A DNA stretch of 64,000 nucleotides, taken from positions 192,308-256,307 of the forward strand of contig JACPJC010000005.1 in assembly GCA_016187745.1 (NCBI GenBank). Reading direction: 5' to 3'. Source of the DNA: Candidatus Iainarchaeum sp. GTDB taxonomy: Archaea; Iainarchaeota; Iainarchaeia; Iainarchaeales; JAXPJC01. This document shows, in pieces, positions 40,576-63,170 of this stretch (positions are counted from its first letter, which is position 1; every line of letters starts with the position of its first letter). A program made the position numbers and the translations under genes. The notes under the pieces are model-generated. The model saw only the letters and a list, made by a program, of their open reading frames with translations, was not told the origin of the DNA and searched no databases.

Positions 40576-40894
40576 CCTCAGAGCAGGGATTCTGAAAGAT
40601 GAGTGCAATGTATGAAATGACAAGAGTTCTTTCAGCAAAAACTGCAAAGCGCAGGACCCTTGCAGACCTTGCAGTTGCCATCCTGGGAAAGGAATGGCCT
40701 CTTTCCTTAAATGCCATACATCAAAGAATAACCAAAGGGCATGGAAAAGCCGCATCAATCCAGGCAACCCATAAGAGCCTTGCAAGGCTTGTAAAGCAGA
40801 ACATTCTTCTGAAGCAGAAAAAACGCTACAGATTGAGCCCGAAATGGCTTGAGCAAGTCAATAATTTCAGCATGCAGACAAAAGAGGCATATGC
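40533..40894 (+). repeat. ~360-bp direct repeat, copy 1 (operator, promoter and short wHTH gene)
   Basis: Matches 57263-57624; the offset is 16,730 bp at both ends. Confidence 0.95.
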
Positions 40895-40916
40895 AACCGG
40901 AGGCATTAAAAAATGA
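40599..40916 (+). CDS. Short 'EWPLS' winged-helix protein (DNA-binding domain only)
   Basis: ILGKEWPLS..SIQATHKSL..L..Y.L...W aligns with the N-termini of the five proteins at 52960-57225. Confidence 0.85.
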   Translation: MSAMYEMTRVLSAKTAKRRTLADLAVAILGKEWPLSLNAIHQRITKGHGKAASIQATHKSLARLVKQNILLKQKKRYRLSPKWLEQVNNFSMQTKEAYATGGIKK

Positions 40917-42695: not shown

Positions 42696-42823
42696 AATAT
42701 ACTTCCCACATACCTTCTCCAACATATTGAGCGTCTTTCGTTCATGAATTATGATCTATTCAATAACACAACGAAAAACCTTTGTATTTATATTAATTTT
42801 CAAATAGAATAATATTGATAAAA

Positions 42824-44119
42824 ATGATTAATCCAAAACTTATTCGAAAAGAATTTGAGTTTGTCAAGAAAAACTTGGAAAGACGCAGAGACCAAAAAAC
42901 AATACAAATTCTGACAGACTGGTATGCTCAAGACAAAGAATTACTCCCACTTCAACAAGAAATAGATTTTTTGAGATCAAAAATAAATAAAATCAATCAA
43001 CAAATAATAGTAGAAAAACTAAGCGAAAAAGATATTAAACCACTTGTAGCCGAAGCAAAAATAACAGCCCAGGTTATTAAAGAAAAAGAAGTACGTCTTA
43101 GTGCCTTAAAAATAACTCATCGTGATTTACTGATGCGAATTCCAAACCTACTAGATGAATCGGTTCCAGTGGGAAATGATGGTAGCGAAAATCAAGTCAT
43201 AAAAAGAGTGGGGAGTATAATTGAACCGGATTTTGAACCGAAACATCACGGGCAATTAGCTACAGAACTTGGTGTAACCGATTTTGAAAGGGCCGTTAAC
43301 CTATCGGGTGCAGGTTTTTACATTTTGAAAGGAGACTTAGCACTCTTAAATTTAGCAATAGTAAACTACGCAGTGAACAAATTAGCAAAAAAAGGGTTTA
43401 CCTTTGTCATCACACCAGGCATGATAAAACGAAAACCCTATGAAGGAGTAATTAATCTTGCAGACTTCCAAGATATGTTATATAAGGTAGAGAAAGAAGA
43501 CTATTACCTCATTGCAACTGCCGAACATCCTTTAATCGCAATGCACATAGGCGAAACATTTGACTCTAAAGATTTACCTATAAAATACATGGGATACACA
43601 ACGAACTACAGAAAAGAAATTGGTGCCCACGGATTAGATGAAAGAGGGCTTTTTCGATTACACCAATTTGATAAAGTAGAACAAACAATTATTTGTGAAC
43701 CGGAAGAAAGCAAAAAATGGCATGAAGAATTATTAAAAAACGCTGAAGAAATAGTCAACGATTTTGAAATACCTTACCAGGTCATTTCAATTTGTGATGG
43801 AGACATTGGACTAGTCGCAGCTAAGAAGTATGATATTGAGGCATGGTCACCGCGTGAAAAAAAATACTTTGAAACTCATTCCTTATCAAATTGCACAACT
43901 TATCAATCGTTGCGATTAAATATTAAGTACAAAAACAGCAAAATAAAGGATTATGTTCACACCCTAAATGCAACTGCAGTTGCTGTACCTCGCATGCTAA
44001 GAGCAATCATCGAAAATTATCAAACAAAGGATGGAACAATAAAAATTCCAAAAGTGTTGCAACCAAATATGGGTGGAAAAAAAGAAATAATGAAGAGCCG
44101 TCCAGAAAGAATAAACTAG
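42824..44119 (+). CDS. serS: Seryl-tRNA synthetase
   Basis: IPNL, LIATAEHPL, YRKEIG..RGLFRLHQFDKVE, KKYDIEAW, SNCT.YQ..RL, HTLNATA..R. Confidence 0.96.
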   Translation: MINPKLIRKEFEFVKKNLERRRDQKTIQILTDWYAQDKELLPLQQEIDFLRSKINKINQQIIVEKLSEKDIKPLVAEAKITAQVIKEKEVRLSALKITHRDLLMRIPNLLDESVPVGNDGSENQVIKRVGSIIEPDFEPKHHGQLATELGVTDFERAVNLSGAGFYILKGDLALLNLAIVNYAVNKLAKKGFTFVITPGMIKRKPYEGVINLADFQDMLYKVEKEDYYLIATAEHPLIAMHIGETFDSKDLPIKYMGYTTNYRKEIGAHGLDERGLFRLHQFDKVEQTIICEPEESKKWHEELLKNAEEIVNDFEIPYQVISICDGDIGLVAAKKYDIEAWSPREKKYFETHSLSNCTTYQSLRLNIKYKNSKIKDYVHTLNATAVAVPRMLRAIIENYQTKDGTIKIPKVLQPNMGGKKEIMKSRPERIN

Positions 44120-49678: not shown

Positions 49679-49831
49679 CCTTAGGCTTTTCGTTATGCAT
49701 ATTGCTAAGTTTTTTGCCTGACATATTTATCCTCTAATTTTATGAGCATACTCATATGCAACATTCTCTTTCCCTGTCATCCCCCCAGCTAATTTCTATC
49801 TGAATTTATCCCTTCTTGGTAAATCTTTTAC

Positions 49832-49932
49832 TAAAGAACCTTGGCGCTGAACGCTCCGCTTTTCAAAGCGGAGATGAAAGCTATTGTACTTATCATAATT
49901 AAACGCCTTGGCATTTATGCCAAGGTTCTTTA
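49832..49932 (-). repeat. ~100-nt structured element with 14-bp terminal inverted repeats, copy 1
   Basis: TAAAGAACCTTGGC...GCCAAGGTTCTTTA with two internal hairpins; homologous to 62625-62728. Confidence 0.85.
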
Positions 49933-50000
49933 CATTCCTGCAATTCATCGCAGAACTTGCAGTTGAACTGGTAGCTTGCATACTGCCCAAAACAGGCCAT
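49899..50000 (-). CDS. Cys-rich mini-protein, copy 1 (33 aa; C-terminus supplied by the structured element)
   Basis: MACFGQYASYQFNCKFCDELQEC..., paralogous to 63163-63312. Confidence 0.5.
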   Translation of the reverse strand: MACFGQYASYQFNCKFCDELQECKEPWHKCQGV

Positions 50001-52959: not shown

Positions 52960-53823
52960 TTACCTGAAATATTTCATCAACTGTTTCTTCAAAAACTTTG
53001 CCATATCAGGATTTCTTGTTATTGTGAGGTCAAAATGCATCGGAGTTTTTAGTGTATTTCTGAAATATACCTCCCTGAAAAGGTCTGTAAGATTTTTGTT
53101 TCTGTTATACACTTCATCCAATATTTGTTTAGTTTCTGCAGAAGATACAACTTCAATTATACAATCTCCTTGAACATACAGCGAGTCATCGAATAGTTGT
53201 TCCTTTGTGCCTATTTTTACATTGCTTACACCTGCTCTTAGAAATTGTTTTTGAAGCCATTTATCAAATGGGCTGGCCAATGAAACAATAGCGTAAGTCT
53301 TCTTACAGTTTCTGGCAACGCCTTGCAAAATCGCAAAATCTTTGAAATTGAATCTTAATGGCCAATACATGTGCCTGAACCAAGCAATTGCTGTTGGGTC
53401 ACTATCTCCTGCTAAGATTCTATTTGCAAGCAACTCTGCTATAAAAACGGATAAAACGCTAAAGTCATTAAACTCCAATTTAATAGTCCCCTTGAAATTC
53501 GGATCAATGTCATAAATCATCCCTTCTTTGTTGTATAGTTTTTCCAAATTTGTAGAGAATTTCTTTATATTTGAAATCCAATCCTTGTTCAACTCATATT
53601 TTGCTCCCGCCCTGTAAATAATTCTGTTTTCTTCAAGCTGTTTTAAACTTTTATGGATAGCCTGGTAAGAAACATTTAACGAGAGCTGCCTCTTGGTTCT
53701 GCCATAAATTTCCTTAGCGCTCAATGGCCACTCCTGGCTTAGTATGGAGATGATGGCGTCTTTGGTGGTATTTTGTTTGGTGTTCAATTGCGGAATTATG
53801 GGATTAACCGGCATCTTATTCAC
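52960..53823 (-). CDS. 'EWPLS' winged-helix regulator, paralog 5
   Basis: IPQL..TKDAIISILSQEWPLSAKEIY..VSYQAIHK plus ~190-aa C-terminal domain. Confidence 0.85.
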   Translation of the reverse strand: MNKMPVNPIIPQLNTKQNTTKDAIISILSQEWPLSAKEIYGRTKRQLSLNVSYQAIHKSLKQLEENRIIYRAGAKYELNKDWISNIKKFSTNLEKLYNKEGMIYDIDPNFKGTIKLEFNDFSVLSVFIAELLANRILAGDSDPTAIAWFRHMYWPLRFNFKDFAILQGVARNCKKTYAIVSLASPFDKWLQKQFLRAGVSNVKIGTKEQLFDDSLYVQGDCIIEVVSSAETKQILDEVYNRNKNLTDLFREVYFRNTLKTPMHFDLTITRNPDMAKFLKKQLMKYFR

Positions 53824-54676
53824 TCCTGAAATATTTCATCAATTGCCTTTTCAAAAATTTTGCCATTGAAGGGTCCCGTGTTATTGTAACCTCAAAATGC
53901 ATTGGAGCCTTTAACGCGTCCCTGAAATACACTTCCCTGAAAAGATCTGTAATATTCTTGTTTCTGTTGTATATCTCATCCAATATCTGTTTAGTTCTTT
54001 GGGAGGCATTGAATTTTATCACGCTATCCCCGTGAACTATTAAATCATAATCAAATAGCTCTTCCCCAATCCCTATTTTTACACCTTTGAAACCGGCTTT
54101 CAAATACTGCTTCTGGACCCATTTATCAAACAAGCTGGCTGAAGAGGCAATAACATAGGCATTTTTGCAGTTTTTGCCTATGCGTTGAAGAAGCTCGAAA
54201 TCCTTAAAGTTAAATCTTAGCGGCCAATAGAGGTGCCTAAGCCAGCCAATTGCCATGGGGGCGCTATCTCCCACCAACGTATTGCTTGAGAGTATTTCCG
54301 CAAAAGTAACAATCATAACTGCATAATCATTAAACTGCCACTTAATTGTCCCCCTAAAGTTCCGGTCAATTTCATAAACCATCTCGTCTTTATTGTATAA
54401 TTTCTCCAGGTTTGTAAAAGATTTCTTTGTGTTTGAGATCCAGCTTCTGTTCAGCTCATATTCCCGCCCGACCTTGGAAATAATTCCCTCTTTTTCAAAT
54501 TGCTTTATTGTTTTGTGGACGGCCTGATAGGAAACATTCAAGGAAAGCTGCCTTCGGGCCCTGTTGTGGATTTCTTTTGCGGATAGGGGCCATTCTTGGC
54601 TAAGAATTGAGACAATTGCATCTTTGGCAGTTTTTTGCTTGGGATTTAATTGCGGAATTACAATATTGGTTGTCAT
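53816..54676 (-). CDS. 'EWPLS' winged-helix regulator, paralog 4
   Basis: Same architecture; closest to paralog 5 (RHLYWPLRFNFKDF). Confidence 0.85.
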   Translation of the reverse strand: MTTNIVIPQLNPKQKTAKDAIVSILSQEWPLSAKEIHNRARRQLSLNVSYQAVHKTIKQFEKEGIISKVGREYELNRSWISNTKKSFTNLEKLYNKDEMVYEIDRNFRGTIKWQFNDYAVMIVTFAEILSSNTLVGDSAPMAIGWLRHLYWPLRFNFKDFELLQRIGKNCKNAYVIASSASLFDKWVQKQYLKAGFKGVKIGIGEELFDYDLIVHGDSVIKFNASQRTKQILDEIYNRNKNITDLFREVYFRDALKAPMHFEVTITRDPSMAKFLKRQLMKYFRSE

Positions 54677-55533
54677 TTTTTATCGCCTTCAAAATACTTC
54701 AAATATTCCTCTCTTATCTGGTCAGCAAGAACCTGGTTCCTTGTTATGACCATGTTGATTATCGGCTTTGCATCCCTCATTCTGTCCAGATGGGATGCCA
54801 GATTGAATTCAGTAATGGTTTTCGGCGATTTGTTCTGCAAATACCATGCGTGCCTGAAATCAGGCGAATACCATATCTGCCCTACATAATCCCCTATAAC
54901 TATCGTATCGCACAAGGGAGTAGCGCACTCAACCCCAAACATGATGTGCTTTGCCCCGAAACCTTTCAAGCCATCTGCAAACATCCTGTCCAATAAATTA
55001 TCTTCCTGCGAGAAGATATAGTATGGAGTTTTTGCAAAAACCTCTTTTAATTCCGCATAATCCTCGTCTTTCAGGCCGACTATTGAGTAAATATTCCTCC
55101 ATAAGCAGATATTCGGCTTGTTTTTTGGGTTTGGATACTGCATATATATTCCAATCAGGAATCTTGCAAGCTCCAGAATTCCGATGAATGTGAGATTGGC
55201 AACATCCTTTTTGTGCAGGTCTTTAAGCTCATTAATCCCGATCTTGCCGGAATAATGCAGGTCCAGCGTGGCTGCGGAATGTTTGACTCTTTTGATCCAG
55301 TCCTTGTTCAGGGAATATTCATTCTCTTGCTTTTCCAATACTTTGTCATCCAGCAGCTGCAGAAGCAATTTGTGCACCGCCTGATAGCTGACATTCAGGC
55401 CATGCTCCCTAATAACTTTATTGTAAATCTTCTTTGCACTAAGCGGCCATTCCTGGCTTAAAATTGAGATAATTACGTCCTTGGTAGATTTATTCTTAGA
55501 AGCCAGCTGCGGAATTTGAATATCATCAATCAT
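54673..55533 (-). CDS. 'EWPLS' winged-helix regulator, paralog 3
   Basis: TKDVIISILSQEWPLSAKKIY..VSYQAVHK. Confidence 0.85.
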   Translation of the reverse strand: MIDDIQIPQLASKNKSTKDVIISILSQEWPLSAKKIYNKVIREHGLNVSYQAVHKLLLQLLDDKVLEKQENEYSLNKDWIKRVKHSAATLDLHYSGKIGINELKDLHKKDVANLTFIGILELARFLIGIYMQYPNPKNKPNICLWRNIYSIVGLKDEDYAELKEVFAKTPYYIFSQEDNLLDRMFADGLKGFGAKHIMFGVECATPLCDTIVIGDYVGQIWYSPDFRHAWYLQNKSPKTITEFNLASHLDRMRDAKPIINMVITRNQVLADQIREEYLKYFEGDKK

Positions 55534-56381
55534 TTTCTCTCTCCCTTGAAATATTCCATTGTCTGTTCCCTGATTCTGTCTGCAACTTCCCGATTCTTTG
55601 AAACTATAACATTGAACTTATCACTATGCTCATATATGAGCATCAGCAGTTTGCTAAGTCTCAGTTTGTCTAAAATTCTAGCAATTTTGCAGTATCTAAG
55701 CCAGTCCTTTCTGAATTTTGGTGAGAAATAAATTAGCCCAACGTAATCTCCCTGGACCATCGTGTCAGGATTAAAGGGAATATCAGCCCCCAATAGAACT
55801 TTTGCCCCAAGACCTGTGAAGTTTTCAGCAAATATCTTGTCCATTGTTGTCTGGTTGTGCCCCAACATATAGTATTGTGTTTGTGAAAGCCTTTGCCTTA
55901 ATCTCCGGTATTCCGAATCGGAAAGGCTGATTGGGGGGTAGATGCTCCACCAATGACAAATTCCTGGCTTCTTGTCAGGATTTGGATATGCAAAAAATAC
56001 ATCCAAGATGAATCTCGCCAGATCCATAGGGTCATTAAATGTGAAATTGAATACTTCCTGATTTTCAGAATGTTTCATTGATGCAGGAATTTTAGTTATG
56101 TATGCCCTTTCTATGAATTCCCCGAAATTCTTAATGCTTCTAATCCAATCCAGGTTTAACATAAATCCTTTTTCAATCTTCTTTATTTGCCCTGCACTTT
56201 CCATCTCATTCAAAGTTTTATGAACTGCCTGATATGAAATCGCAATCGTACGCTTTCTAAGCAAGCGATTGCAAATCTCTTTGGCACTCAAAGGCCACTC
56301 TTCAGCCAAGATTGCAATAATTTGGTCTTTCGTTGATTTTGATTTAGAATTCAGCTGTGGGATTGAAATGTCCATAGCCAT
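55530..56381 (-). CDS. 'EWPLS' winged-helix regulator, paralog 2
   Basis: TKDQIIAILAEEWPLSAKEI..ISYQAVHK. Confidence 0.85.
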   Translation of the reverse strand: MAMDISIPQLNSKSKSTKDQIIAILAEEWPLSAKEICNRLLRKRTIAISYQAVHKTLNEMESAGQIKKIEKGFMLNLDWIRSIKNFGEFIERAYITKIPASMKHSENQEVFNFTFNDPMDLARFILDVFFAYPNPDKKPGICHWWSIYPPISLSDSEYRRLRQRLSQTQYYMLGHNQTTMDKIFAENFTGLGAKVLLGADIPFNPDTMVQGDYVGLIYFSPKFRKDWLRYCKIARILDKLRLSKLLMLIYEHSDKFNVIVSKNREVADRIREQTMEYFKGERK

Positions 56382-56382
56382 T

Positions 56383-57225
56383 TTACTCCCCCTTCCTGAA
56401 ATATGACAAGGTCTGCTTTTTCAGGAATTGCGCAAGCCCTTTGTTGCGGTTGATTACCACAGGGATCCTGACCTTTTTCTCAAACACGTTCCTGAAAAAC
56501 CCGTCAGCATCAATGTCATTTGCGCCTGATGCGCGCTCATAAACCTTGTCAATTTCGTATTTTATTGCCTGGGGGTAAAAGACCTCTGCTACAATGTCCT
56601 TGTATATTACCATGTCAATAGTGGATGCTGAGTCAACACCGCACTTTGCATGAATTCCTTTCTTACGCCAAAAATTGCAGAACTGCCTGTCAATTGCGGT
56701 ATTGCCCCTTGTTATGGAATATGTATTGCATGCAGCCAGGATTTCATTCATCTGCCTGTATTCCTCCATAAACATAAAAAGCGGTATCCAGAAATGGGTC
56801 CAGTGCAGGCAAAGAACCTCTTTTTTGCCTGAGATTTCCTTCTTCCCAAATCCTATAAGGAATTTGTCCACATCATAAACCGAATTAAACATGAGATTCA
56901 ATGGATTGGCGTTTGGATTCTGCGGCTCATTTAACGCATATGCTGTTTCCAGATGCTCGCTGAATTCCTTAATATTCTTTATCCATTCGTTGTCCAGCAG
57001 ATATGCCATGCCCTGGCTTGCTATTATCCTGTGCGATTGAAGCGTATTGAGCGTCTTATGAACCGCCTGATAGGAAATGCCGATTGCCTGCTGCCTGCGG
57101 AGCTTGTTGTAAATCTGCTTGGCTGTAAGGGGCCACTCTTCGCTGAGTATTGAAATAATCGCGTCCTTCGTGGAGCCTGCTTTTGAACCGAATTGCGGCA
57201 GGATTGGGCTTGAGCCTGTAGGCAT
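56383..57225 (-). CDS. 'EWPLS/T' winged-helix regulator, paralog 1 (first gene of the array)
   Basis: TKDAIISILSEEWPLTAKQIY..ISYQAVHK; start moved to ATG 57225. Confidence 0.85.
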   Translation of the reverse strand: MPTGSSPILPQFGSKAGSTKDAIISILSEEWPLTAKQIYNKLRRQQAIGISYQAVHKTLNTLQSHRIIASQGMAYLLDNEWIKNIKEFSEHLETAYALNEPQNPNANPLNLMFNSVYDVDKFLIGFGKKEISGKKEVLCLHWTHFWIPLFMFMEEYRQMNEILAACNTYSITRGNTAIDRQFCNFWRKKGIHAKCGVDSASTIDMVIYKDIVAEVFYPQAIKYEIDKVYERASGANDIDADGFFRNVFEKKVRIPVVINRNKGLAQFLKKQTLSYFRKGE

Positions 57226-57262
57226 AATAAGTAAATATAGTGGAGGGGAAGCTTTTTTAAAT

Positions 57263-57305
57263 TCAACCATTTAGTTGATTTCTGTTCAACCGCAGGTATA
57301 TTAAT
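57263..57305 (+). promoter_or_regulatory. Palindromic operator-like site plus TATA-like box, copy B (divergent promoter region)
   Basis: TCAACC-ATTT-AGTTGA-N7-TCAACC-GCAGG-TATATTAAT, 23 bp before ATG 57329. Confidence 0.8.
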
Positions 57306-57624
57306 CCTCAGAGCGGGAATTCTGAAAGATGAGTGCAATGTACGAAATGACAAGGCTTCTTTCAGCAAAAACTGCAAAGCGCAAAACTCTTGCAGACCTT
57401 GCAGTTGCTATCCTGGGCAGGGAATGGCCCCTTTCCTTAAATGCCATACACCAGAAAATAACCAAAGGACATGGAAAAGCCGCATCAATCCAGGCAACCC
57501 ATAAAAGCCTTGCAAGGCTTGTAAGGCAAAATGTTCTTCTGAAAAGTAAAAAACGCTACAGACTGAGCCCGAAATGGCTTGAGCAGGTAAATAATTTCAG
57601 CATGCAGACGAAAGAGGCTTATGC
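57263..57624 (+). repeat. ~360-bp direct repeat, copy 2
   Basis: Matches 40533-40894. Confidence 0.95.
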
Positions 57625-57643
57625 GTTGTCATGTAACAGCTAA
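57329..57643 (+). CDS. Short 'EWPLS' winged-helix protein, copy 2
   Basis: 7 substitutions versus 40599-40916 over the first 99 aa, then a different tail. Confidence 0.85.
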   Translation: MSAMYEMTRLLSAKTAKRKTLADLAVAILGREWPLSLNAIHQKITKGHGKAASIQATHKSLARLVRQNVLLKSKKRYRLSPKWLEQVNNFSMQTKEAYALSCNS

Positions 57644-57658
57644 ACACACATTGAGACT

Positions 57659-60280
57659 GTGATGAAAATGAATGAATTTTACCATGCTAGAAGACTTAAG
57701 ATTCTTGAACTCATGAAACAAGAAAAGACACAACACCCCAACAAAAATTATCTTTCTATTCACAAACAGGTATGTAGTTATCCTGTTTTGTCAATCGTTG
57801 CTCCAGTCGTAGACAGCTATCAGGATAAAATAGAGTTTCCTGGCGACCCAATGTGCTTGTACACTGCCCTCGCTTACCCAATCAAGCAAGTAGTGGACCA
57901 CGTTGATAAAGTTTCAAAAGAGTTTGATCAATTTCCAGAGAGAAAAATTGGCTTCTACAACGACCTTTTCCCACAATGGTTTCAACTTCCATCTAACGGC
58001 TACAGAAACTTTGCTTCCGAAGAACAAATATCAAAGTATGACTACAAAGACGGTGACTTTTTTAACACAGACCAACTAGTTTTTGATCCGCGAGCATGGA
58101 CACCTGATACCAAAGATTGTCTAAATAGGCTGTTGAACTTTATAGATCCAAAAGTCGTATTGATTAGTGGGGTTTCTTCGGCGCAAAAATTTGTAGTTGA
58201 AATTGCAAAGATCGTGAAAGACTATAATGATAAAATAATAATCATAGTGGGGGGACGGCACGCAGATGAAACAATAAAAGAAAAAAATGGTGAAATTGTT
58301 TTTGAACAGGCTAGCATAGTAAGTGCTATTGCAGAAAAAAGAATACTGCCCGTAATTGACATTGTGTTATCTGGCGAGGGCTATTATGCGTTAGATTTTC
58401 TCATGAAAACAATATCCCAAAGTATGGATATTGAAAAAAAGATTGTTTTGGATTCAAAGATTTTGCTTGAATCGCTTACAAAAAAAGAGCATTTGTTAGC
58501 AAAGGTTCTAGGAAAGGCAATCATCACCTGTCTTATCGGAGGAAAAATACGATTTTTTGTGACAAGTGGGAAAAAAACAAGATTGGAATACCCCTTTGTA
58601 ATTAGAGCACGTTTTTCTGTATTCTCTGAAAAAGAGAATAAACCGCCAATAACCGCCCACATAAATACTTCACACACTTGCCTTTACAGTTGCTTATATT
58701 GTTCAGAAGGCAAAAATGTCGTCAATCGAAATGTGTATGCTAGCGAAAAAAGATACTTTAAAAAAACAATCAAAGACTATTTGGATTATGGGGCATTGGC
58801 ATTCTTTTTTGATGATTCAGTCCTTTGCGGTGGGAACATTGCAAGAATTGGAATTTTGCTAGAAGCGCTTTCAGAATTAAGGGAAGAAGCGAAAAAGAAA
58901 ATGAAAACATTCTCCTATTTGGATCCCTGTCTTGAGAAAGTGTACAGGACAGCAAATTTTGAATGGGGGGCTCAGCTAACATTTGATTCAATTACAACAG
59001 TCTTGCCAAAGGAAGAAGCGAGAAACATTCTGAAAAAAATGAATGAAACTGGTTGCAGATACTTGTATTTTGGCATTGAGAGCCTTGCTGAAAAAGTAAT
59101 AAGAAATGTCCACAAGAACTTGCCCAACAAGGATGCTGATTGGCTGGAAAAAACAATAAAAGCGCTGGAACTAGTTAAAGAGGCAAATATCCGTGCAGGT
59201 GCTTCCGTTTTATTTGGGTTGCCTGGAGAAACAATGCAAACAATAGACTTCACCATCAATGAGGTCGCAAAACTGGTGCGAAAAAACCTTCTTTTAATAG
59301 TCAGCCCAAACATCCTTTCATATCATCCAGGAACACTAATAACTGAAATGGATTCTGCGAAGGAGAAAATAGATTATTTTAACCAAATAGAGGATATCAG
59401 TCCACCCTATTCTTATTTTGAAGAAGCATTCAGATGCCTTGTTTCAATAAGGCTAACCGAGGAAATGATTTGGCACATTCATAATCAAACAAAATTAAAA
59501 TGGAAAAAACACCGCAACATGAATTTAATGAAGATCCCCAGACTTCCGATGGATATCACAAAAGAAAGACTGGTGAGTTTTTATTCCACTATTGGAAATA
59601 GGCTTGTAGAACAAAAAAATTATCCCCCCGAAATCAATGAATTTCTTGAACTAGAAAAAAAGTTGTTTAAAGACTTGGTTAAAAAAGAAAACTGCAAAAT
59701 TATTGTTGAAGTTGGTTGCATGGATACTGGGTTCATTCTTCAAGAAACCATAGAAGCTGGACTTTCCTATATTGGAATAGATGTGGTTAAGGAATTGGTT
59801 GAAAAACTAAATACAACAATATCCAATTCTGCTTTTGATAAAGGCATAAACACAGCAATAGCCTATAATCAGGGGGTGGAAGAACTGTCGAAAATTATCA
59901 AAAAAAGTAAATTGACTGCTGGAGAAACATTAGCTGTCTTTCCATTCAACAGTTTTGGCAATATCACAGACCCAGAAAAAGCAGTTAATGAAATATGCAA
60001 ACTTGGAATGAACATGGCAGTATTTACCTACAAAACAGATCCTCAAACAACAAAAATCAGAAAAAAATATTATTTCAACTGCGACTACAAGAATACAAAA
60101 GAGTTAAAAGAAGATAAAGGGATATTATTTCAGTCGGAAGATGGTTTAATGTCTTACGCCTATAAGGAGTCATACATAAAAAAATTGTTGTCCAAAAGAG
60201 ACTATGAATACAAATTAATCAAGTTTGGTGCAATTGGAGCCTTATATTTTTGCAAAAAAAGGAGGATGCCAAATGGATAA
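57659..60280 (+). CDS. B12-binding-type radical SAM protein fused to a C-terminal methyltransferase-like domain
   Basis: IIVGGRHA, GEG, CLYSCLYC, FFDD, GIESL, LFGLPGET; C-terminal IVEVGC..YIGIDV..FNSFGN. Confidence 0.85.
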   Translation: MMKMNEFYHARRLKILELMKQEKTQHPNKNYLSIHKQVCSYPVLSIVAPVVDSYQDKIEFPGDPMCLYTALAYPIKQVVDHVDKVSKEFDQFPERKIGFYNDLFPQWFQLPSNGYRNFASEEQISKYDYKDGDFFNTDQLVFDPRAWTPDTKDCLNRLLNFIDPKVVLISGVSSAQKFVVEIAKIVKDYNDKIIIIVGGRHADETIKEKNGEIVFEQASIVSAIAEKRILPVIDIVLSGEGYYALDFLMKTISQSMDIEKKIVLDSKILLESLTKKEHLLAKVLGKAIITCLIGGKIRFFVTSGKKTRLEYPFVIRARFSVFSEKENKPPITAHINTSHTCLYSCLYCSEGKNVVNRNVYASEKRYFKKTIKDYLDYGALAFFFDDSVLCGGNIARIGILLEALSELREEAKKKMKTFSYLDPCLEKVYRTANFEWGAQLTFDSITTVLPKEEARNILKKMNETGCRYLYFGIESLAEKVIRNVHKNLPNKDADWLEKTIKALELVKEANIRAGASVLFGLPGETMQTIDFTINEVAKLVRKNLLLIVSPNILSYHPGTLITEMDSAKEKIDYFNQIEDISPPYSYFEEAFRCLVSIRLTEEMIWHIHNQTKLKWKKHRNMNLMKIPRLPMDITKERLVSFYSTIGNRLVEQKNYPPEINEFLELEKKLFKDLVKKENCKIIVEVGCMDTGFILQETIEAGLSYIGIDVVKELVEKLNTTISNSAFDKGINTAIAYNQGVEELSKIIKKSKLTAGETLAVFPFNSFGNITDPEKAVNEICKLGMNMAVFTYKTDPQTTKIRKKYYFNCDYKNTKELKEDKGILFQSEDGLMSYAYKESYIKKLLSKRDYEYKLIKFGAIGALYFCKKRRMPNG

Positions 60281-61079
60281 CAGAATAAAAATAAATGTAA
60301 AAGAGAATTTTGAAGAAAGACTCTCCGGGCTGGAAATAGGTTACATATACTTCTATGGAGTGAATAATACTGCCAACAATCCAATCGTTGACGATGCAAT
60401 AAGGACTGCTTGCAAAGAAGTAATCGAAAGATACAAAGACACAAACACTATTGCAGAAAACCCCGCAATAAAAGGAATACGCTCACTGTTCTCAAAAATA
60501 GGGATTGACCCAACGAAAGAAAGACCGTCCGGAGAAGCACTCATCAGAAGAGTCACAAGTGGCAAAGGAATATACCGAATAAACCCGGTCGTAGACATAA
60601 ACAATGTTGTATCTATTCTATCAGGCTATCCCTGCGGGGTCTATGATGCTGAAAAAATTGCCGGAAATGAGATTAAAGTTTCTATTGGCGGAAAAGGTTT
60701 AATCTTTGAGGGCATCGGAGGAAGACCGATAAATGGCGAAGGCAGAATTCTCACAGAGGACAGCCATTCTGTTTTCGGTGGGCCAGTAGCAGACTCAAAA
60801 AGAACCTCCATCACACCACGAACAACAAAAGTACTAATGCTAATATACCACCCAAGCAACGCACCAAAAGAACTACTCAAAAAAGCAATTGAACTAGCAC
60901 AAACTAAAATGGCTTCCGCCGTTAAGGCCAATATAGCTTATGCAGATGTCTGCCGCATAGGCCAAAACCCCCATTCCCAAACACCACTACCTAACATAAA
61001 GCGGTTTATGGAGAAAGAAAGAACCCTTAAAAAAAATTATTTCAACATAAGCAGAAAAAGACCAAAACCACTTATTTAG
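60273..61079 (+). CDS. B3/B4 (PheRS editing-like) domain protein
   Basis: R.LF.KIGIDPTKERPSGEAL.RR, INPVVD.NN, G.YD, GGP..DS.RT; start moved to ATG 60273. Confidence 0.9.
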   Translation: MDNRIKINVKENFEERLSGLEIGYIYFYGVNNTANNPIVDDAIRTACKEVIERYKDTNTIAENPAIKGIRSLFSKIGIDPTKERPSGEALIRRVTSGKGIYRINPVVDINNVVSILSGYPCGVYDAEKIAGNEIKVSIGGKGLIFEGIGGRPINGEGRILTEDSHSVFGGPVADSKRTSITPRTTKVLMLIYHPSNAPKELLKKAIELAQTKMASAVKANIAYADVCRIGQNPHSQTPLPNIKRFMEKERTLKKNYFNISRKRPKPLI

Positions 61080-61088
61080 AGGGATTAA

Positions 61089-61385
61089 ATGAAACTAGTA
61101 AGGGATAAAATTCCAGAAATAATGGACGCAAAAGGAAAGAAGCCAATAATTCATACCGCCAGTGCTGATGAGTTTAAGAGGAATCTGATTGAAAAGCTTA
61201 ATGAAGAAGTATTAGAAATAAAAAAAGAGTTAAATGCTGAGGAATTGGCAGATCTGCTTGAAGTTATATATTCTTTGGGCAAATTAATTTGGCTGACACC
61301 GCAAGACCTTGAAAAGATAAGAATAAAAAAAGCTGAAGAGAACGGCGACTTTTCAAAAAAGATAATATTGGAAAACCCGAAATAA
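61089..61385 (+). CDS. MazG-like/PRA-PH-like nucleoside triphosphate pyrophosphohydrolase
   Basis: KLVRDKIPEI..KL.EE..E..EELADLLEV..R..K..G.F. Confidence 0.9.
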   Translation: MKLVRDKIPEIMDAKGKKPIIHTASADEFKRNLIEKLNEEVLEIKKELNAEELADLLEVIYSLGKLIWLTPQDLEKIRIKKAEENGDFSKKIILENPK

Positions 61386-61420: not shown

Positions 61421-61463
61421 TAAACCATTTAGTTGATTTCTGTTCAACCGCAGGTATATTAAT
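61421..61463 (+). promoter_or_regulatory. Palindromic operator-like site plus TATA-like box, copy C
   Basis: TAAACC-ATTT-AGTTGA-N7-TCAACC-GCAGG-TATATTAAT, 32 bp before ATG 61496. Confidence 0.8.
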
Positions 61464-61495
61464 GCCAAAATTCTATGTATAAAAAGTGAGGTAGA

Positions 61496-62236
61496 ATGAT
61501 GCTGAAGAGAAATGTTTTGTTGTGCCTTTCAATGCTGCTGTTAAGCCCATTTGTTTCTGCAATAGGCTCTGAATTGAATGGCAGTGAAAACTACAATTAT
61601 AATCTTGCAGAGTTGAACAAACTACTGCCGTATATGGCTCTGAATAAGGATTATTCTGTAAAATTTGATTCTGTCGTGGCAAAAGCAGAGCTGCCGGAGA
61701 AGTATGTAAAATTGGGAAAGCTTTATGAAGAATATCATAACAACTTTATTCAGGCTGCAAAGGCCAATGGAGTTTACTCGAACAAAATAAAAGAATTGCC
61801 GGACAATCAATTCTTCAGCAATTTCTTCGAGTCTAAAAGCACAATGACAGCTCAAGCCACAATCTCTGCAAGCAGCCTGGTTTGCGGGGGAAGCCAGCAG
61901 CAGCCGCATCAATGCCCTGCAAGGGTAAATTCAGGGATATCCAAGAAAAGCCAGACAGAAATATCAAATTATTTAAAGGGCATGGGATTCCACAATACTT
62001 ATTGGCCAGGCTGCGGGCCGCAGGGATATACCTGCTCAACAGACTTTACAAAGTGGATAAGTGCATATAATTGCACTTGGGGCTCTTTCAGAACCCAGGC
62101 AAATATCTTTCAAAGCGGAACAAAATGGACTTACAGAACACAATCCCCTGAGCCGAATCCGGAGATTTTCAGCTATTCATGGCCAGTATACTGGTGGGGA
62201 ACTTATGTTTCATGGTGGCACTTATCTTGCAACTGA
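61496..62236 (+). CDS. Secreted Cys/Trp-rich hypothetical protein
   Basis: Signal peptide ending VSA; C-terminal PEPNPE..Y.WP.YWW..YV.WWH. Confidence 0.8.
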   Translation: MMLKRNVLLCLSMLLLSPFVSAIGSELNGSENYNYNLAELNKLLPYMALNKDYSVKFDSVVAKAELPEKYVKLGKLYEEYHNNFIQAAKANGVYSNKIKELPDNQFFSNFFESKSTMTAQATISASSLVCGGSQQQPHQCPARVNSGISKKSQTEISNYLKGMGFHNTYWPGCGPQGYTCSTDFTKWISAYNCTWGSFRTQANIFQSGTKWTYRTQSPEPNPEIFSYSWPVYWWGTYVSWWHLSCN

Positions 62237-62592: not shown

Positions 62593-62624
62593 TATCGATA
62601 AGGATAACTATCTTCTGTATTTAC

Positions 62625-62728
62625 TAAAGAACCCTGGCGCTGAACGCTTCGTTCTTCAGAACTGAGATGAAAACTATTCTGATTGTTGTCATTCCTAAAC
62701 GCCCTGGCATTTATGCCAAGGTTCTTTA
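62625..62728 (-). repeat. ~100-nt structured element with terminal inverted repeats, copy 2
   Basis: Homologous to 49832-49932, with G-U and compensatory changes. Confidence 0.85.
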
Positions 62729-62741
62729 CGAATCAGGGGAC

Positions 62742-62784
62742 TAAACTATTTGGTTGATTTCTGTTCAACCTCACATATATTAAT
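62742..62784 (+). promoter_or_regulatory. Palindromic operator-like site plus TATA-like box, copy D
   Basis: TAAACT-ATTT-GGTTGA-N7-TCAACC-TCACA-TATATTAAT, 32 bp before ATG 62817. Confidence 0.75.
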
Positions 62785-62816
62785 CCTCAGGGCGCGGGTT
62801 ATAATGGGGGTGTGCT

Positions 62817-63170
62817 ATGGGAAAAATTGTTTTGAATATTCTGGAGCTTGCCTGCTTCAGGATTGCAAAGGAGCAGGGAATCAGGTGGTTTGAATTGCCC
62901 CATGCAAAAGTCTTATCAGGCTTGTGCAATGGTAGGAAGCAGGGCCCTGAGGAAATTGCAGAAAATGCAGGAATTTCAAGGGACGAGGCATTTGGGGCGC
63001 TTGATGCGCTGGTTGCGAACAAGGCGCTCAGCTACGATGGCAACAGGTATTTTGCTGAAGATGCCCTGCAGGCAGTAAATATGCTGATTGACCTCGCGGA
63101 AGCAAAGCAAATAAAGCAGCCAATAGTGCAAATGCAGAAGGAGACTGAACTGCTGGAAGAATATGCCTGA
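62817..63170 (+). CDS. TrmB-like helix-turn-helix protein
   Basis: AKVLSGL..EEIAENAGISRDEAFGALDAL..RYFA. Confidence 0.75.
   Translation: MGKIVLNILELACFRIAKEQGIRWFELPHAKVLSGLCNGRKQGPEEIAENAGISRDEAFGALDALVANKALSYDGNRYFAEDALQAVNMLIDLAEAKQIKQPIVQMQKETELLEEYA

What the first reader, a model, noticed from the sequence alone, without database searches (positions are those of the whole stretch)
57659..61385. Second cassette: B12-type rSAM-methyltransferase fusion, B3/B4 editing domain and NTP pyrophosphohydrolase
Seen: an 873-aa fusion overlapping a B3/B4 gene, followed by a MazG-like gene, all AT-rich. Established: free-standing B3/B4 proteins can deacylate mischarged tRNAs (for example CtdA for canavanyl-tRNA), and MazG-like enzymes remove abnormal nucleotides. 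Inference: synthesis of a non-proteinogenic amino acid or modified nucleotide, with self-protection genes. Both header-led cassettes pair a radical SAM enzyme with a tRNA-aminoacylation gene (SerRS, B3/B4), which suggests a common theme of translation-targeting metabolites.
Basis: partly seen in the sequence, partly recalled or inferred. Interest (0 to 1): 0.65.

Follow-up and report, generated by a model that had tools for sequence, protein, structure and literature searches.

The report
Proline-mimic synthase with tRNA-proofreading partner
A tiny symbiotic-type (DPANN) archaeon carries a horizontally acquired operon whose fused enzyme most likely turns S-adenosylmethionine into methyl-azetidine-carboxylate, a toxic look-alike of proline. 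The neighbouring B3/4 gene most likely strips that look-alike off tRNA so that the producer does not poison its own protein synthesis.

Summary
The genes are real.

- **Fusion protein.** The C-terminal "methyltransferase" domain of the 873-aa protein is a VioH/AzeJ-type azetidine-2-carboxylate (AZE) synthase (PDB 8RYG, E 2e-27). All catalytic residues are conserved. It is fused to a cobalamin-type radical SAM domain, as in the VioG/VioH pair that makes 4-methyl-AZE, an isomer of proline.
- **B3/4 protein.** It has the fold of the canavanyl-tRNA deacylase CtdA (TM 0.83) and keeps the catalytic Asn.
- **Co-conservation.** Radical SAM, B3/4 and VioH-like genes occur together in 30 of 34 loci from Patescibacteria (CPR), DPANN archaea and other phyla. 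Gene order varies and the three proteins diverge in step (r about 0.78). Of the four loci without B3/4, three link the synthase to NRPS, NRPS-PKS or ATP-grasp genes; the fourth is a truncated contig.
- **Proline link.** Eight loci also carry ProRS, proABC, P5C reductase or proline dehydrogenase.
- **Not supported.** The MazG-like gene is genuine but is not co-conserved. The SerRS of the other cassette is the ordinary housekeeping copy, so the "common theme" fails.

No biochemistry was done. The fusion, the B3/4 link and the proline link were not found in the papers searched.

The parts
57263..57305 (+). Shared operator/promoter motif: palindrome GTTGAnnnnnnnTCAAC followed by TATATTAAT, about 25 nt upstream of the header gene
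   Evidence: Four copies in the whole 0.96-Mb genome, all in this window and all on the + strand (40533, 57263, 61421, 62742). Each lies 65-75 nt before an ATG; none is expected by chance. The motif is conserved in L047. A function as an archaeal TATA box plus operator is inferred.
57329..57643 (+). Header gene: 104-aa winged-helix-type DNA-binding protein, probable regulator of the operon
   Evidence: 93% identical to the product of 40599-40916. 30-38% identical to the N-terminal parts of the five tandem ~286-aa paralogues at 52960-57270. A 107-aa orthologue heads the same operon in L047.
57659..60280 (+). 873-aa fused synthase: cobalamin-type radical SAM domain plus VioH-like AZE-synthase domain
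   Evidence: Fused homologues are in L005, L006, L007, L030 and L047. Only about 4 fused clusters turned up among 1.84 billion representative proteins.
58112..58294 (+). Residues 152-212: Rossmann-like cobalamin-binding region (weak match)
   Evidence: Pfam PF02310, E 5.6e-5, 23.4 bits, below the 32.1-bit cut-off. TIGR04434 'B12-binding domain/radical SAM' is the best NCBIfam hit at E 1e-27, but far below its cut-off.
58661..59260 (+). Residues 335-534: radical SAM core, with the [4Fe-4S] motif C341-x3-C345-x2-C348 at 58679-58702
   Evidence: Pfam PF04055, E 3.8e-10. Motif located.
59564..60247 (+). Residues 636-863: VioH/AzeJ-type SAM-cyclising lyase (AZE synthase) domain
   Evidence: PDB 8RYG VioH E 1.9e-27, 8RYD AzeJ E 3.1e-16. 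AzeJ Y18, D85, F134, N139, R172, Y175, Y176 and S203 map to Y642, D708, F763, N768, R801, Y804, Y805 and S832. At the two positions where VioH differs from AzeJ, the domain is VioH-like (S765, I822).
60273..61079 (+). 268-aa free-standing B3/4 protein (CtdA-like), predicted (Me)AZE-tRNAPro deacylase, with a basic C-terminal tail found only in this copy (residues ~229-268)
   Evidence: Pfam B3_4, E 7.7e-19. Profile against PDB: CtdA 9F7E E 6.4e-13. AlphaFold2 model pLDDT 90.9; best Foldseek hit CtdA, E 2.5e-16, TM 0.83. The catalytic Asn is invariant as N111. The gene is adjacent to the synthase in 30 of 34 loci.
61089..61385 (+). 98-aa MazG-like all-alpha NTP pyrophosphohydrolase; last gene of the operon and probably a passenger
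   Evidence: Family names and size. Invariant E39, E40, E43, E51, E52, D55. 13 of 26 homologues hit PF12643. No homologue in any other VioH-like locus.
61421..61463 (+). Next copy of the operator/promoter motif; marks the end of this transcription unit and the start of the next gene (246-aa secreted protein)

Best explanation
The unit 57263-61385 is a horizontally acquired operon for making a proline antimetabolite and surviving it.

1. Shown by sequence: one promoter/operator drives a small winged-helix regulator, the 873-aa fusion, the B3/4 gene and a MazG-like gene.
2. Inferred from the Orf29 and VioG precedents: the N-terminal cobalamin-type radical SAM domain (cluster Cys 341/345/348) uses a 5'-deoxyadenosyl radical and methylcobalamin to C-methylate the C4'' carbon of a substrate SAM.
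3. Strongly inferred from homology and conserved catalytic residues: the C-terminal VioH-like domain makes the alpha-amine attack C4'', expelling methylthioadenosine. This closes the four-membered ring and gives 4-methyl-azetidine-2-carboxylate (MeAZE), a structural isomer of proline. Fusion would pass the rare 4''-methyl-SAM directly to the cyclase.
4. Inferred: prolyl-tRNA synthetase mischarges tRNAPro with MeAZE or AZE. The CtdA-like B3/4 protein hydrolyses that ester but spares Pro-tRNAPro, so the producer's proteome stays clean while the free amino acid accumulates or is released against a host or competitors.
5. In other lineages the same module recruits extra ProRS copies and proline-synthesis genes as further protection. 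The MazG-like gene is a local passenger.
For: Domain identity:
- The C-terminal domain matches VioH (8RYG, E 1.9e-27) and AzeJ (8RYD, E 3.1e-16), with every AzeJ active-site residue conserved.
- Published biochemistry: AzeJ cyclises SAM to AZE (PMC11794875). VioH cyclises (4''S)-4''-methyl-SAM to trans-MeAZE and needs the methyl group. VioG plus VioH give MeAZE in vivo (PMC12930334).

rSAM partner:
- An rSAM of one family is adjacent or fused to the VioH-like gene wherever the contig extends far enough.
- The clade-B members tested (L029, L032) pass TIGR04434. The window's domain has TIGR04434 as its best hit.

B3/4:
- CtdA-like fold and conserved catalytic Asn and Gly, with a different pocket residue (CtdA E118 is replaced by an invariant Tyr).
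- Present in 30 of 34 loci across at least three gene orders.
- Pairwise divergence of rSAM, B3/4 and VioH-like proteins is correlated, r 0.77-0.79, p <= 0.0005.
- Three of the four loci without B3/4 have NRPS, NRPS-PKS or ATP-grasp genes beside the synthase, so the product there goes into peptides; the fourth (L044) is a truncated contig.
- VioG plus VioH alone suffice for MeAZE, so B3/4 is not needed for synthesis.
- In the same phylum, related B3/4 domains are fused to LysRS and MetRS, which places this domain type in aminoacyl-tRNA biology.

Proline link:
- ProRS, proA/B, P5C reductase, proline dehydrogenase or an ornithine-aminotransferase-like gene flank the module in 8 loci from unrelated lineages.

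Accessory status:
- Low GC, absent from 60 same-order relatives, and the only strong VioH-like gene among 215 genomes of the phylum.
Against: - No enzyme of this module has been assayed. VioG itself has never been characterised in vitro.
- The window's rSAM domain is only about 25% identical to the TIGR04434-type rSAMs. Its nearest relatives (42-44% identity) are solitary ~655-aa Anaerolineales proteins with no VioH-like or B3/4 neighbour. One such genome has no VioH-like gene at all. This rSAM clade can therefore do something that does not need a cyclase.
- The cobalamin-binding match is weak, and a 0.96-Mb genome would have to import cobalamin.
- The B3/4 pocket residues that would define specificity could not be modelled with a ligand. 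tRNAPro as the substrate rests only on gene neighbourhood and on the known mischarging of AZE by ProRS.
- B3/4 often sits between the rSAM and cyclase genes with overlapping reading frames. That would also fit a structural subunit.
- This organism has a single ProRS and no proA, proC or proline dehydrogenase next to the cassette.
Confidence: 0.62

Rival explanations
1. The synthase makes (Me)AZE as proposed, but the B3/4 protein is not an editing enzyme. It is a structural or substrate-handling subunit of the synthase, for example binding the adenosine-amino acid part of SAM or 4''-methyl-SAM, which resembles an aminoacyl-A76 end.
For: B3/4 often lies between the rSAM and VioH-like genes with overlapping or abutting frames. 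It diverges in step with them. No deacylase assay exists for this subfamily.
Against: VioG plus VioH alone give MeAZE in Myxococcus. Three of the four loci that lack B3/4 are the NRPS, PKS or ATP-grasp-linked ones, which still need the amino acid. The catalytic Asn of CtdA and PheRS editing sites is invariant. Related B3/4 domains in this phylum are appended to aminoacyl-tRNA synthetases.
Confidence: 0.12
2. The radical SAM domain does not methylate SAM. It performs another radical reaction, either on AZE after ring closure or on a different substrate. The product is then plain AZE or another azetidine derivative.
For: Its closest relatives work without any cyclase partner. It scores far below the TIGR04434 cut-off. 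The cobalamin-domain match is weak. Klaubert et al. also left other rSAM chemistry open.
Against: The cyclase domain carries the VioH-type residues at the positions that distinguish VioH from AzeJ, and VioH needs the C4'' methyl group. The basal members of the window's rSAM clade (L011, L013, L020) are all in triads. Known SAM C4''-methylases are themselves only about 23% identical to each other.
Confidence: 0.13
3. (Me)AZE is not an end product. It is a building block that is charged onto tRNA and passed to a tRNA-dependent peptide or other pathway. B3/4 and the linked ProRS genes would then serve that delivery rather than protection.
For: Klaubert et al. read the aminoacyl-tRNA synthetase neighbours as peptide-synthesis genes. 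Some loci carry a second ProRS, a Trbp111-like tRNA-binding protein or an anticodon-domain-only protein.
Against: No cyclodipeptide synthase, Fem-type transferase, NRPS or ATP-grasp gene lies in this operon or in most triad loci. The only activity shown for B3/4 domains is hydrolysis. Proline synthesis and catabolism genes fit competition and protection better than delivery.
Confidence: 0.08
4. One reading: the cassette makes a modified nucleotide, and the MazG-like enzyme clears the abnormal nucleotide.
For: A MazG-like gene with intact metal-binding motifs is the last gene of the operon.
Against: None of the other 33 loci has a MazG-like homologue. The synthase domains point to SAM-derived amino-acid chemistry whose by-products are MTA, SAH and 5'-deoxyadenosine, not NTPs.
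Confidence: 0.02

Closest known systems
VioG/VioH of the vioprolide cluster (Cystobacter violaceus): trans-4-methyl-AZE synthesis (PMC12930334, PMC11794875)
   Same: A cobalamin-type radical SAM enzyme is paired with a class-I-methyltransferase-fold SAM cyclase. The window's cyclase domain is closest to VioH among solved structures (E 1.9e-27, 29% identity) and shares its active site, including the PFNSFGN stretch.
   Different: Here the two enzymes are one polypeptide. The rSAM domain belongs to a divergent clade (about 25% identity to the TIGR04434 type). There is no NRPS. A B3/4 gene is attached. The host is a 0.96-Mb DPANN archaeon. VioG's sequence was not at hand, so direct orthology was not tested.
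AzeJ (Pseudomonas aeruginosa PA3335), AZE synthase, PDB 8RYD-8RYF
   Same: Same fold and catalytic residues: Tyr18, Asp85, Phe134, Asn139, Arg172, Tyr175, Tyr176 and Ser203 are all conserved.
   Different: Identity is lower (24%). At AzeJ Leu136 and Thr193 the window has Ser and Ile, the VioH type (VioH has Val at the second position). AzeJ works alone on unmethylated SAM and feeds an NRPS.
CtdA, canavanyl-tRNAArg deacylase (PDB 9F7E, 9MKL; PMC10018355, PMC12449066)
   Same: A free-standing B3/4 protein of about 230 aa with the same fold (TM 0.83). The catalytic Asn (N105 maps to N111) and the pocket Gly (G116 maps to G122) are conserved. The logic is the same: removing a toxic non-proteinogenic amino acid from tRNA.
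   Different: Only 16-19% identity. CtdA E118 is replaced by an invariant Tyr. The C166/Q173 region that sets canavanine specificity does not align. The gene sits inside the producer's own biosynthetic operon, not in a consumer's detoxification locus. The predicted substrate is tRNAPro, not tRNAArg.
Klaubert et al. 2025 'cluster III' AZE-synthase neighbourhoods (B12-rSAM plus aminoacyl-tRNA synthetase, including a CPR clade and two archaeal genomes)
   Same: The same family of loci. Their list includes L011 (Pacearchaeota JAGNLO01) and L031 (Patescibacteria JAHIRA01).
   Different: That paper does not mention B3/4 proteins, the fused archaeal enzymes or the proline-gene link. It reads the tRNA-related neighbours as peptide-synthesis genes.
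Orf29/Orf30 (methyl-ACC) and BnvC/Orf5 (cis-MeAZE) pathways
   Same: A cobalamin-dependent rSAM C4''-methylates SAM first, and a second enzyme then cyclises 4''-methyl-SAM.
   Different: Their cyclases are a PLP enzyme and a DUF364 protein, not the methyltransferase fold. They are NRPS-linked and have no editing gene.
INS-superfamily trans-editing factors for tRNAPro (ProXp-ala, YbaK)
   Same: The same predicted job: clearing mischarged tRNAPro in trans.
   Different: Unrelated fold. They act on Ala or Cys, and none is known to act on AZE.

Membership tests
AZE synthase (AzeJ/VioH-type SAM-cyclising lyase) | Significant sequence similarity to the solved enzymes over the whole domain | tested here: met
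   8RYG E 1.9e-27 over residues 641-863; 8RYD E 3.1e-16; 29ST E 1.7e-13
AZE synthase (AzeJ/VioH-type SAM-cyclising lyase) | Active-site residues: gating Tyr18, ribose-binding Asp85, cation-pi Phe134, carboxylate ligands Asn139/Tyr176/Ser203, Tyr175, Arg172 | tested here: met
   They map to Y642, D708, F763, N768, Y805, S832, Y804 and R801. D, F, N, R and Y175 are invariant in 22 aligned sequences.
AZE synthase (AzeJ/VioH-type SAM-cyclising lyase) | GxxxG adenine-binding motif in place of the methyltransferase GxGxG | tested here: inconclusive
   The window has G686-CMDT-G691, one residue longer than GxxxG. The other homologues have GxxxG or GxxxA.
AZE synthase (AzeJ/VioH-type SAM-cyclising lyase) | Cyclisation of SAM or 4''-methyl-SAM to (Me)AZE plus MTA | not testable with these tools
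   Needs an enzyme assay
Class B (cobalamin-dependent) radical SAM methylase of the VioG / TIGR04434 type | CxxxCxxC cluster motif within a radical SAM core | tested here: met
   C341/C345/C348; PF04055 E 3.8e-10
Class B (cobalamin-dependent) radical SAM methylase of the VioG / TIGR04434 type | N-terminal cobalamin-binding domain | tested here: inconclusive
   PF02310 E 5.6e-5, 23.4 bits, below the 32.1-bit cut-off. Several homologues carry PF02310 in precomputed annotation.
Class B (cobalamin-dependent) radical SAM methylase of the VioG / TIGR04434 type | Score above the TIGR04434 cut-off (550 bits) | tested here: not met
   96.9 bits. It is the best NCBIfam hit, but far below the cut-off. 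Triad rSAMs of clade B pass with 612-651 bits. The window's domain is therefore a divergent relative, not a member.
Class B (cobalamin-dependent) radical SAM methylase of the VioG / TIGR04434 type | Genomic pairing with a VioH-like cyclase | tested here: met
   Fused here and in four other archaeal loci with a complete gene, and adjacent wherever the contig reaches far enough. The solitary Anaerolineales sister clade is the exception.
Class B (cobalamin-dependent) radical SAM methylase of the VioG / TIGR04434 type | Direct similarity to VioG, Orf29 or BnvC; C4'' methylation of SAM | not tested
The activity needs an assay.
CtdA-like free-standing B3/4 aminoacyl-tRNA deacylase | B3/4 fold over the full length | tested here: met
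   AlphaFold2 model pLDDT 90.9. Foldseek: 9F7E E 2.5e-16, TM 0.83; 9MKL; then PheRS-beta chains. Pfam B3_4 E 7.7e-19.
CtdA-like free-standing B3/4 aminoacyl-tRNA deacylase | Catalytic Asn (CtdA N105 / PheRS N254) and pocket Gly (G116) | tested here: met
   N111 and G122 are invariant in 25 module-linked B3/4 proteins.
CtdA-like free-standing B3/4 aminoacyl-tRNA deacylase | Canavanine-specific residues (E118, C166, Q173) | tested here: not met
   E118 corresponds to an invariant Tyr124. The C166/Q173 region is not alignable by HMMER. The family has its own invariant residues D163, G169, D174 and S175. It is a sister subfamily with a different predicted specificity, not CtdA proper.
CtdA-like free-standing B3/4 aminoacyl-tRNA deacylase | Hydrolysis of a mischarged tRNA | not testable with these tools
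   Needs a deacylation assay
MazG-like all-alpha NTP pyrophosphohydrolase | EExxE...ExxD metal-binding motifs on a four-helix protein of about 100 aa | tested here: met
   E39, E40, E43, E51, E52 and D55 are invariant. The model shows four helices but has low confidence, pLDDT 60.6.
MazG-like all-alpha NTP pyrophosphohydrolase | Match to the Pfam or NCBIfam model | tested here: inconclusive
   The protein itself gives no hit. 13 of 26 homologues hit PF12643 and 7 hit PF01503. Profile against PDB: 5IE9 E 0.14 only.
MazG-like all-alpha NTP pyrophosphohydrolase | Belongs to the conserved (Me)AZE module | tested here: not met
   No homologue in 33 other loci

The most novel reading that the evidence does not exclude
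Ultra-small symbionts of both domains (DPANN archaea and CPR/Patescibacteria) share a mobile three-gene weapon-and-shield kit. A SAM-derived proline isomer (MeAZE) is released to corrupt the translation of hosts or competitors, and a dedicated B3/4 enzyme edits MeAZE-tRNAPro in the producer. That would be the first trans-editing factor encoded as the immunity gene of a biosynthetic operon, and the second substrate specificity known for free-standing B3/4 proteins.
Probability: 0.35. Interest if true: 0.85.

Novelty: new variant of a known kind. Interest (0 to 1): 0.72.

Why it matters
- **A testable new editing specificity.** CtdA is the only free-standing B3/4 editing enzyme with a known substrate. 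A second specificity, for an azetidine amino acid on tRNAPro, written into the producer's own operon, would show that tRNA proofreading can serve as antibiotic-type self-immunity.
- **A possible route to the enzymology.** The natural rSAM-cyclase fusion may help with a step that is currently blocked: recombinant VioG could not be obtained (PMC12930334).
- **A concrete chemical trait for poorly understood organisms.** A translation-targeting antimetabolite in CPR and DPANN organisms, together with extra ProRS and proline-synthesis genes in genomes that otherwise lack most biosynthesis, bears on how these episymbionts deal with hosts.
- **An annotation fix.** The 'methyltransferase' and 'phenylalanine-tRNA ligase beta-related' labels hide this module.

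Tried and rejected
- **Whole-protein family scans.** Pfam and NCBIfam on the full fusion gave only generic labels. The lead came from the PDB sequence search.
- **Neighbourhoods of the closest rSAM homologues.** Three ~650-aa Anaerolineales proteins had no B3/4 or cyclase nearby. A whole-genome check of one found only a weak generic methyltransferase match, E 3.6e-4. The idea that every member of this rSAM clade works with a cyclase was dropped.
- **MazG as part of the pathway.** Rejected, because no homologue is present in the other loci. The single-sequence structure model of the 98-aa protein was too poor to search with (pLDDT 60.6). The profile against PDB was not significant.
- **SerRS 'common theme'.** Rejected after comparison with relatives.
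- **Promoter and terminator scan.** The sigma-70 and intrinsic-terminator scan is uninformative for an archaeon.
- **Literature.** Searches for AZE together with B3/4, CtdA, deacylase, CPR or DPANN found nothing beyond Klaubert et al.. Subscription journals are not covered.
- **Oddly called tRNA beside ProRS on contig C8.** It proved to be an ordinary intron-bearing tRNAPro(UGG).

Full report
**Setting.** The window is C1:192308-256307 of a 0.96-Mb, 10-contig, 91%-complete genome of about 45.5% GC. The gene content is archaeal: KaiC, V4R and intron-bearing tRNAs. The nearest protein relatives come from Micrarchaeota-type DPANN archaea.

**Anatomy.** Four co-directional genes lie at 57329-61385.
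- A 104-aa winged-helix 'header' protein.
- An 873-aa radical SAM fusion.
- A B3/4 protein, whose ATG at 60273 overlaps the fusion's stop by 8 nt.
- A 98-aa ORF, 9 nt further on.

GC is 0.33-0.40, against 0.455 for the genome. A 39-45-nt motif carrying the palindrome GTTGA-n7-TCAAC followed by TATATTAAT precedes the header gene. It recurs exactly just after the 98-aa gene. The genome has only four copies, all in this window, each 65-75 nt before a + strand ATG. The four genes therefore form one transcription unit bounded by two copies of a shared operator/promoter. An independent contig from another sample (L047, 90% nucleotide identity) has the same operator, header, fusion and B3/4 order.

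**What the fusion is.** Pfam sees a radical SAM core (335-534), a weak B12-binding match (152-212) and a weak methyltransferase match. The cluster motif is C341-x3-C345-x2-C348.

The informative result came from the PDB sequence search. Residues 641-863 match 8RYG (E 1.9e-27), 8RYD (E 3.1e-16) and 29ST. Entries 8RYG and 8RYD are VioH and AzeJ, the azetidine-2-carboxylate (AZE) synthases. They have a class I methyltransferase fold but do not transfer methyl groups. They make the SAM alpha-amine attack C-gamma, releasing methylthioadenosine and forming the four-membered proline mimic AZE (PMC11794875).

In an alignment of 22 sequences, every active-site residue described for AzeJ is present in the window protein:
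- Y18 maps to Y642
- D85 to D708
- F134 to F763
- N139 to N768
- R172 to R801
- Y175 to Y804
- Y176 to Y805
- S203 to S832

At the two positions where VioH differs from AzeJ (L136 and T193), the window has the VioH-type residues, S765 and I822.

VioH works with the cobalamin-dependent rSAM VioG. VioH cyclises (4''S)-4''-methyl-SAM efficiently and SAM hardly at all, so C-methylation of SAM comes first and the product is 4-methyl-AZE (PMC12930334). MeAZE has the same elemental formula as proline; this last point is my own chemical knowledge. The 873-aa protein is therefore best read as a natural fusion of a VioG-like domain and a VioH-like domain.

**The radical SAM domain needs a caveat.**
- Its best NCBIfam hit is TIGR04434, at 97 bits against a cut-off of 550.
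- The rSAMs beside VioH-like genes in bacteria (a Saccharibacteria triad and a Micromonospora NRPS cluster) are true TIGR04434 members at 612-651 bits.
- A tree of 33 rSAMs shows two deep clades. Clade B holds the bacterial triads. Clade A has L011 (Pacearchaeota) and L013 at its base. Above them, the archaeal fusions plus L020 form a sister group to a large set of solitary ~655-aa Anaerolineales proteins.
- Those solitary proteins are 42-44% identical to the window's domain. They have no cyclase or B3/4 neighbour, and one such genome has no VioH-like gene.

The module-linked state is thus basal in the clade, but the clade can also work without a cyclase. Known SAM C4''-methylases are only about 23% identical to each other, so low identity alone is not an argument against the proposed chemistry.

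**The B3/4 protein.**
- Pfam B3_4, E 7.7e-19.
- A profile of 25 module-linked B3/4 proteins finds the canavanyl-tRNAArg deacylase CtdA (9F7E E 6.4e-13; 9MKL E 1.7e-11) well ahead of PheRS-beta (about 1e-4).
- An AlphaFold2 model (pLDDT 90.9) superposes on CtdA with TM 0.83 over the whole CtdA chain.
- The Asn that positions the hydrolytic water in PheRS and is essential in CtdA (N105) is invariant here as N111. So is the pocket Gly (G116 maps to G122). CtdA E118 is replaced by an invariant Tyr.
- The region around the canavanine-specific C166 and Q173 does not align. The subfamily has its own invariant residues, D163, G169, D174 and S175.

It is therefore a sister subfamily of CtdA with a different pocket.

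I collected 34 distinct loci with a VioH-like gene from metagenome contigs and from a scan of GTDB representative genomes.
- Thirty have a B3/4 gene of this subfamily next to it, and an rSAM of the same family is adjacent or fused wherever the contig reaches far enough.
- Hosts include Saccharibacteria and other Patescibacteria, Clostridia, Ruminococcus, Rikenellaceae, Ignavibacteria, Gammaproteobacteria, Rhodospirillaceae, Eiseniibacteriota, Pacearchaeota and Micrarchaeota.
- Gene order varies: B3/4-rSAM-cyclase, rSAM-B3/4-cyclase, rSAM-cyclase-B3/4, divergent, or fused rSAM-cyclase followed by B3/4.
- Pairwise identities of the three proteins across 20 complete loci are correlated, r 0.77-0.79, Mantel p <= 0.0005. 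The three genes travel and diverge as a unit.
- The four loci without B3/4 are one truncated contig and three loci where the cyclase abuts an NRPS (Micromonospora), an NRPS-PKS (Angelobacter) or an ATP-grasp ligase (Acidobacteria). No B3/4-bearing locus has an NRPS.

VioG plus VioH alone produce MeAZE in Myxococcus. Together this says that B3/4 is not needed to make the amino acid. It accompanies the module when the amino acid is not channelled into an assembly line, which is what a protective factor would do.

**The proline link.** In eight loci from unrelated lineages the module is flanked by proline genes:
- ProRS in L005, L007, L013 (two copies) and L016.
- proA and proB in L005, L007, L030 and the Saccharibacteria locus L032.
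- P5C reductase in six loci.
- Proline dehydrogenase in L005, L007 and L037.
- An ornithine-aminotransferase-like gene in L013.

AZE is known to be charged by ProRS and built into proteins (PMC11794875, PMC5741666). Extra target-enzyme copies and extra supply of the natural competitor are classic self-resistance devices; that generalisation is my own knowledge.

This organism has one ProRS, on contig C8 beside a ProB-like gene and an intron-bearing tRNAPro(UGG). It has no proA, proC or proline dehydrogenase. B3/4 would therefore be its only dedicated shield.

**Independent support that this type of B3/4 domain works on aminoacyl-tRNA.** Among 215 genomes of the same phylum, 48 have related B3/4 domains. 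In the genomes examined, the domain sits at the C-terminus of a class I LysRS (815 aa, L048) and of a MetRS (718 aa, L052).

**Accessory nature.** The fusion gene is absent from 60 same-order relatives. The genome is the only one of 215 in its phylum with a strong VioH-like gene. An exhaustive search of 1.84 billion representative proteins finds only about four clusters with the fused architecture, against more than a hundred stand-alone VioH-like clusters.

**The 98-aa gene.** It has no family hit of its own. It belongs to a family of more than 3,300 proteins that sources name MazG-superfamily NTP pyrophosphohydrolases. The family has an invariant EExxE...EExxD motif, and half of the sampled homologues hit Pfam MazG-like. 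However, no other locus has such a gene, and its chemistry has no obvious place in a SAM-to-amino-acid pathway. I treat it as a passenger.

**The 'common theme' with the first cassette.** The two cassettes share a duplicated regulator gene and its operator. The header protein is related to the N-terminal domains of the five tandem paralogues upstream. The SerRS at 42815-44119 is 45-53% identical to the single SerRS in most of the 24 relatives that have one. The odd copy is the second SerRS-like gene on contig C7, at 40% identity. The first cassette therefore does not pair a radical SAM enzyme with a dedicated aminoacylation gene.

**What is already known and what is not.** Klaubert et al. (2025) described 'cluster III' neighbourhoods with a B12-rSAM and an aminoacyl-tRNA synthetase, a CPR clade and two archaeal genomes (a Pacearchaeota, which is my L011, and a Diapherotrites). 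They suggested methyl-AZE as the product. Their text and supplements do not mention B3/4 proteins, the fused archaeal enzymes or the proline genes. Searches of the held library found no paper linking AZE to B3/4, CtdA or a deacylase. The library lacks most subscription journals, so earlier work cannot be excluded.

**Verdict.** The domain assignments and the co-conservation are solid. The chemistry of the rSAM step, the tRNA substrate of B3/4 and the ecological role are inferences awaiting assay.

Noticed in passing
L048 2885-5332 (G143:C27) and L052 2293-4449 (G141:C22): In same-phylum relatives, CtdA-like B3/4 domains are fused to the C-terminus of a class I LysRS (815 aa: tRNA-synt_1f + Anticodon_2 + B3_4) and of a MetRS (718 aa). 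48 of 215 genomes have such B3/4 domains, many inside 700-820-aa open frames. These may be appended editing domains on synthetases not known to carry them.
   Followed up: partly
G000 contig C7:20498-21772 (outside the window): A second SerRS-like gene, 40% identical to the window's SerRS, lies inside an 854-aa open frame. The 24 same-order relatives with a match have one SerRS each, and it resembles the window's copy.
   Followed up: partly
window 61421-62236 and 62742-63170: The same operator/promoter motif also precedes two other genes. One encodes a 246-aa signal-peptide protein rich in Cys and Trp with no family hit. The other encodes a 117-aa protein with no family hit. Both are probably co-regulated with the synthase operon.
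   Followed up: no
L008, L009, L010 (Anaerolineales contigs): A large clade of solitary ~650-aa radical SAM proteins is 42-44% identical to the window's rSAM domain and is sister to the archaeal fusions. They have no cyclase or B3/4 nearby; a LOG-type (Lysine_decarbox family) gene follows in two of the three loci. Their function is unknown.
   Followed up: partly
L013 3299-11268; L016 3346-7035: The richest versions of the module. L013 adds an ornithine-aminotransferase-like gene, P5C reductase, a Trbp111-like tRNA-binding protein, a D-amino-acid-oxidase-family gene, a methyltransferase and two ProRS genes. L016 adds ProRS, a 356-aa protein with only an HGTP anticodon-binding domain, and a TIR-domain gene.
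   Followed up: partly
window 60957-61079 (B3/4 residues ~229-268): The window's B3/4 protein has a 40-residue lysine/arginine-rich C-terminal tail, predicted as a helix at low confidence. It is absent from all 24 other module-linked B3/4 proteins. It may be an added tRNA-binding element.
   Followed up: no
G000 contig C8:4132-6516 (L054 1133-3520): An intron-bearing tRNAPro(UGG) (Rfam tRNA, 48 bits, 16-nt insert in the anticodon loop), a ProB-like amino-acid kinase and the genome's only ProRS lie in a row. The tRNA overlaps the called start of the kinase ORF.
   Followed up: partly
window 49827-49933 and 62620-62729: A repeat of about 100 nt in two copies (80-89% identity) flanks the region that holds the regulator array and this operon. 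It is already the subject of other notes.
   Followed up: no
G157:C3:77523-78113 and G063:C108:8105-8704: Two other genomes of the phylum have weaker AzeJ/VioH-like matches (E about 1e-19, 223-aa frames) and no strong B3/4 match. These may be a different type of AZE-synthase-like system.
   Followed up: no
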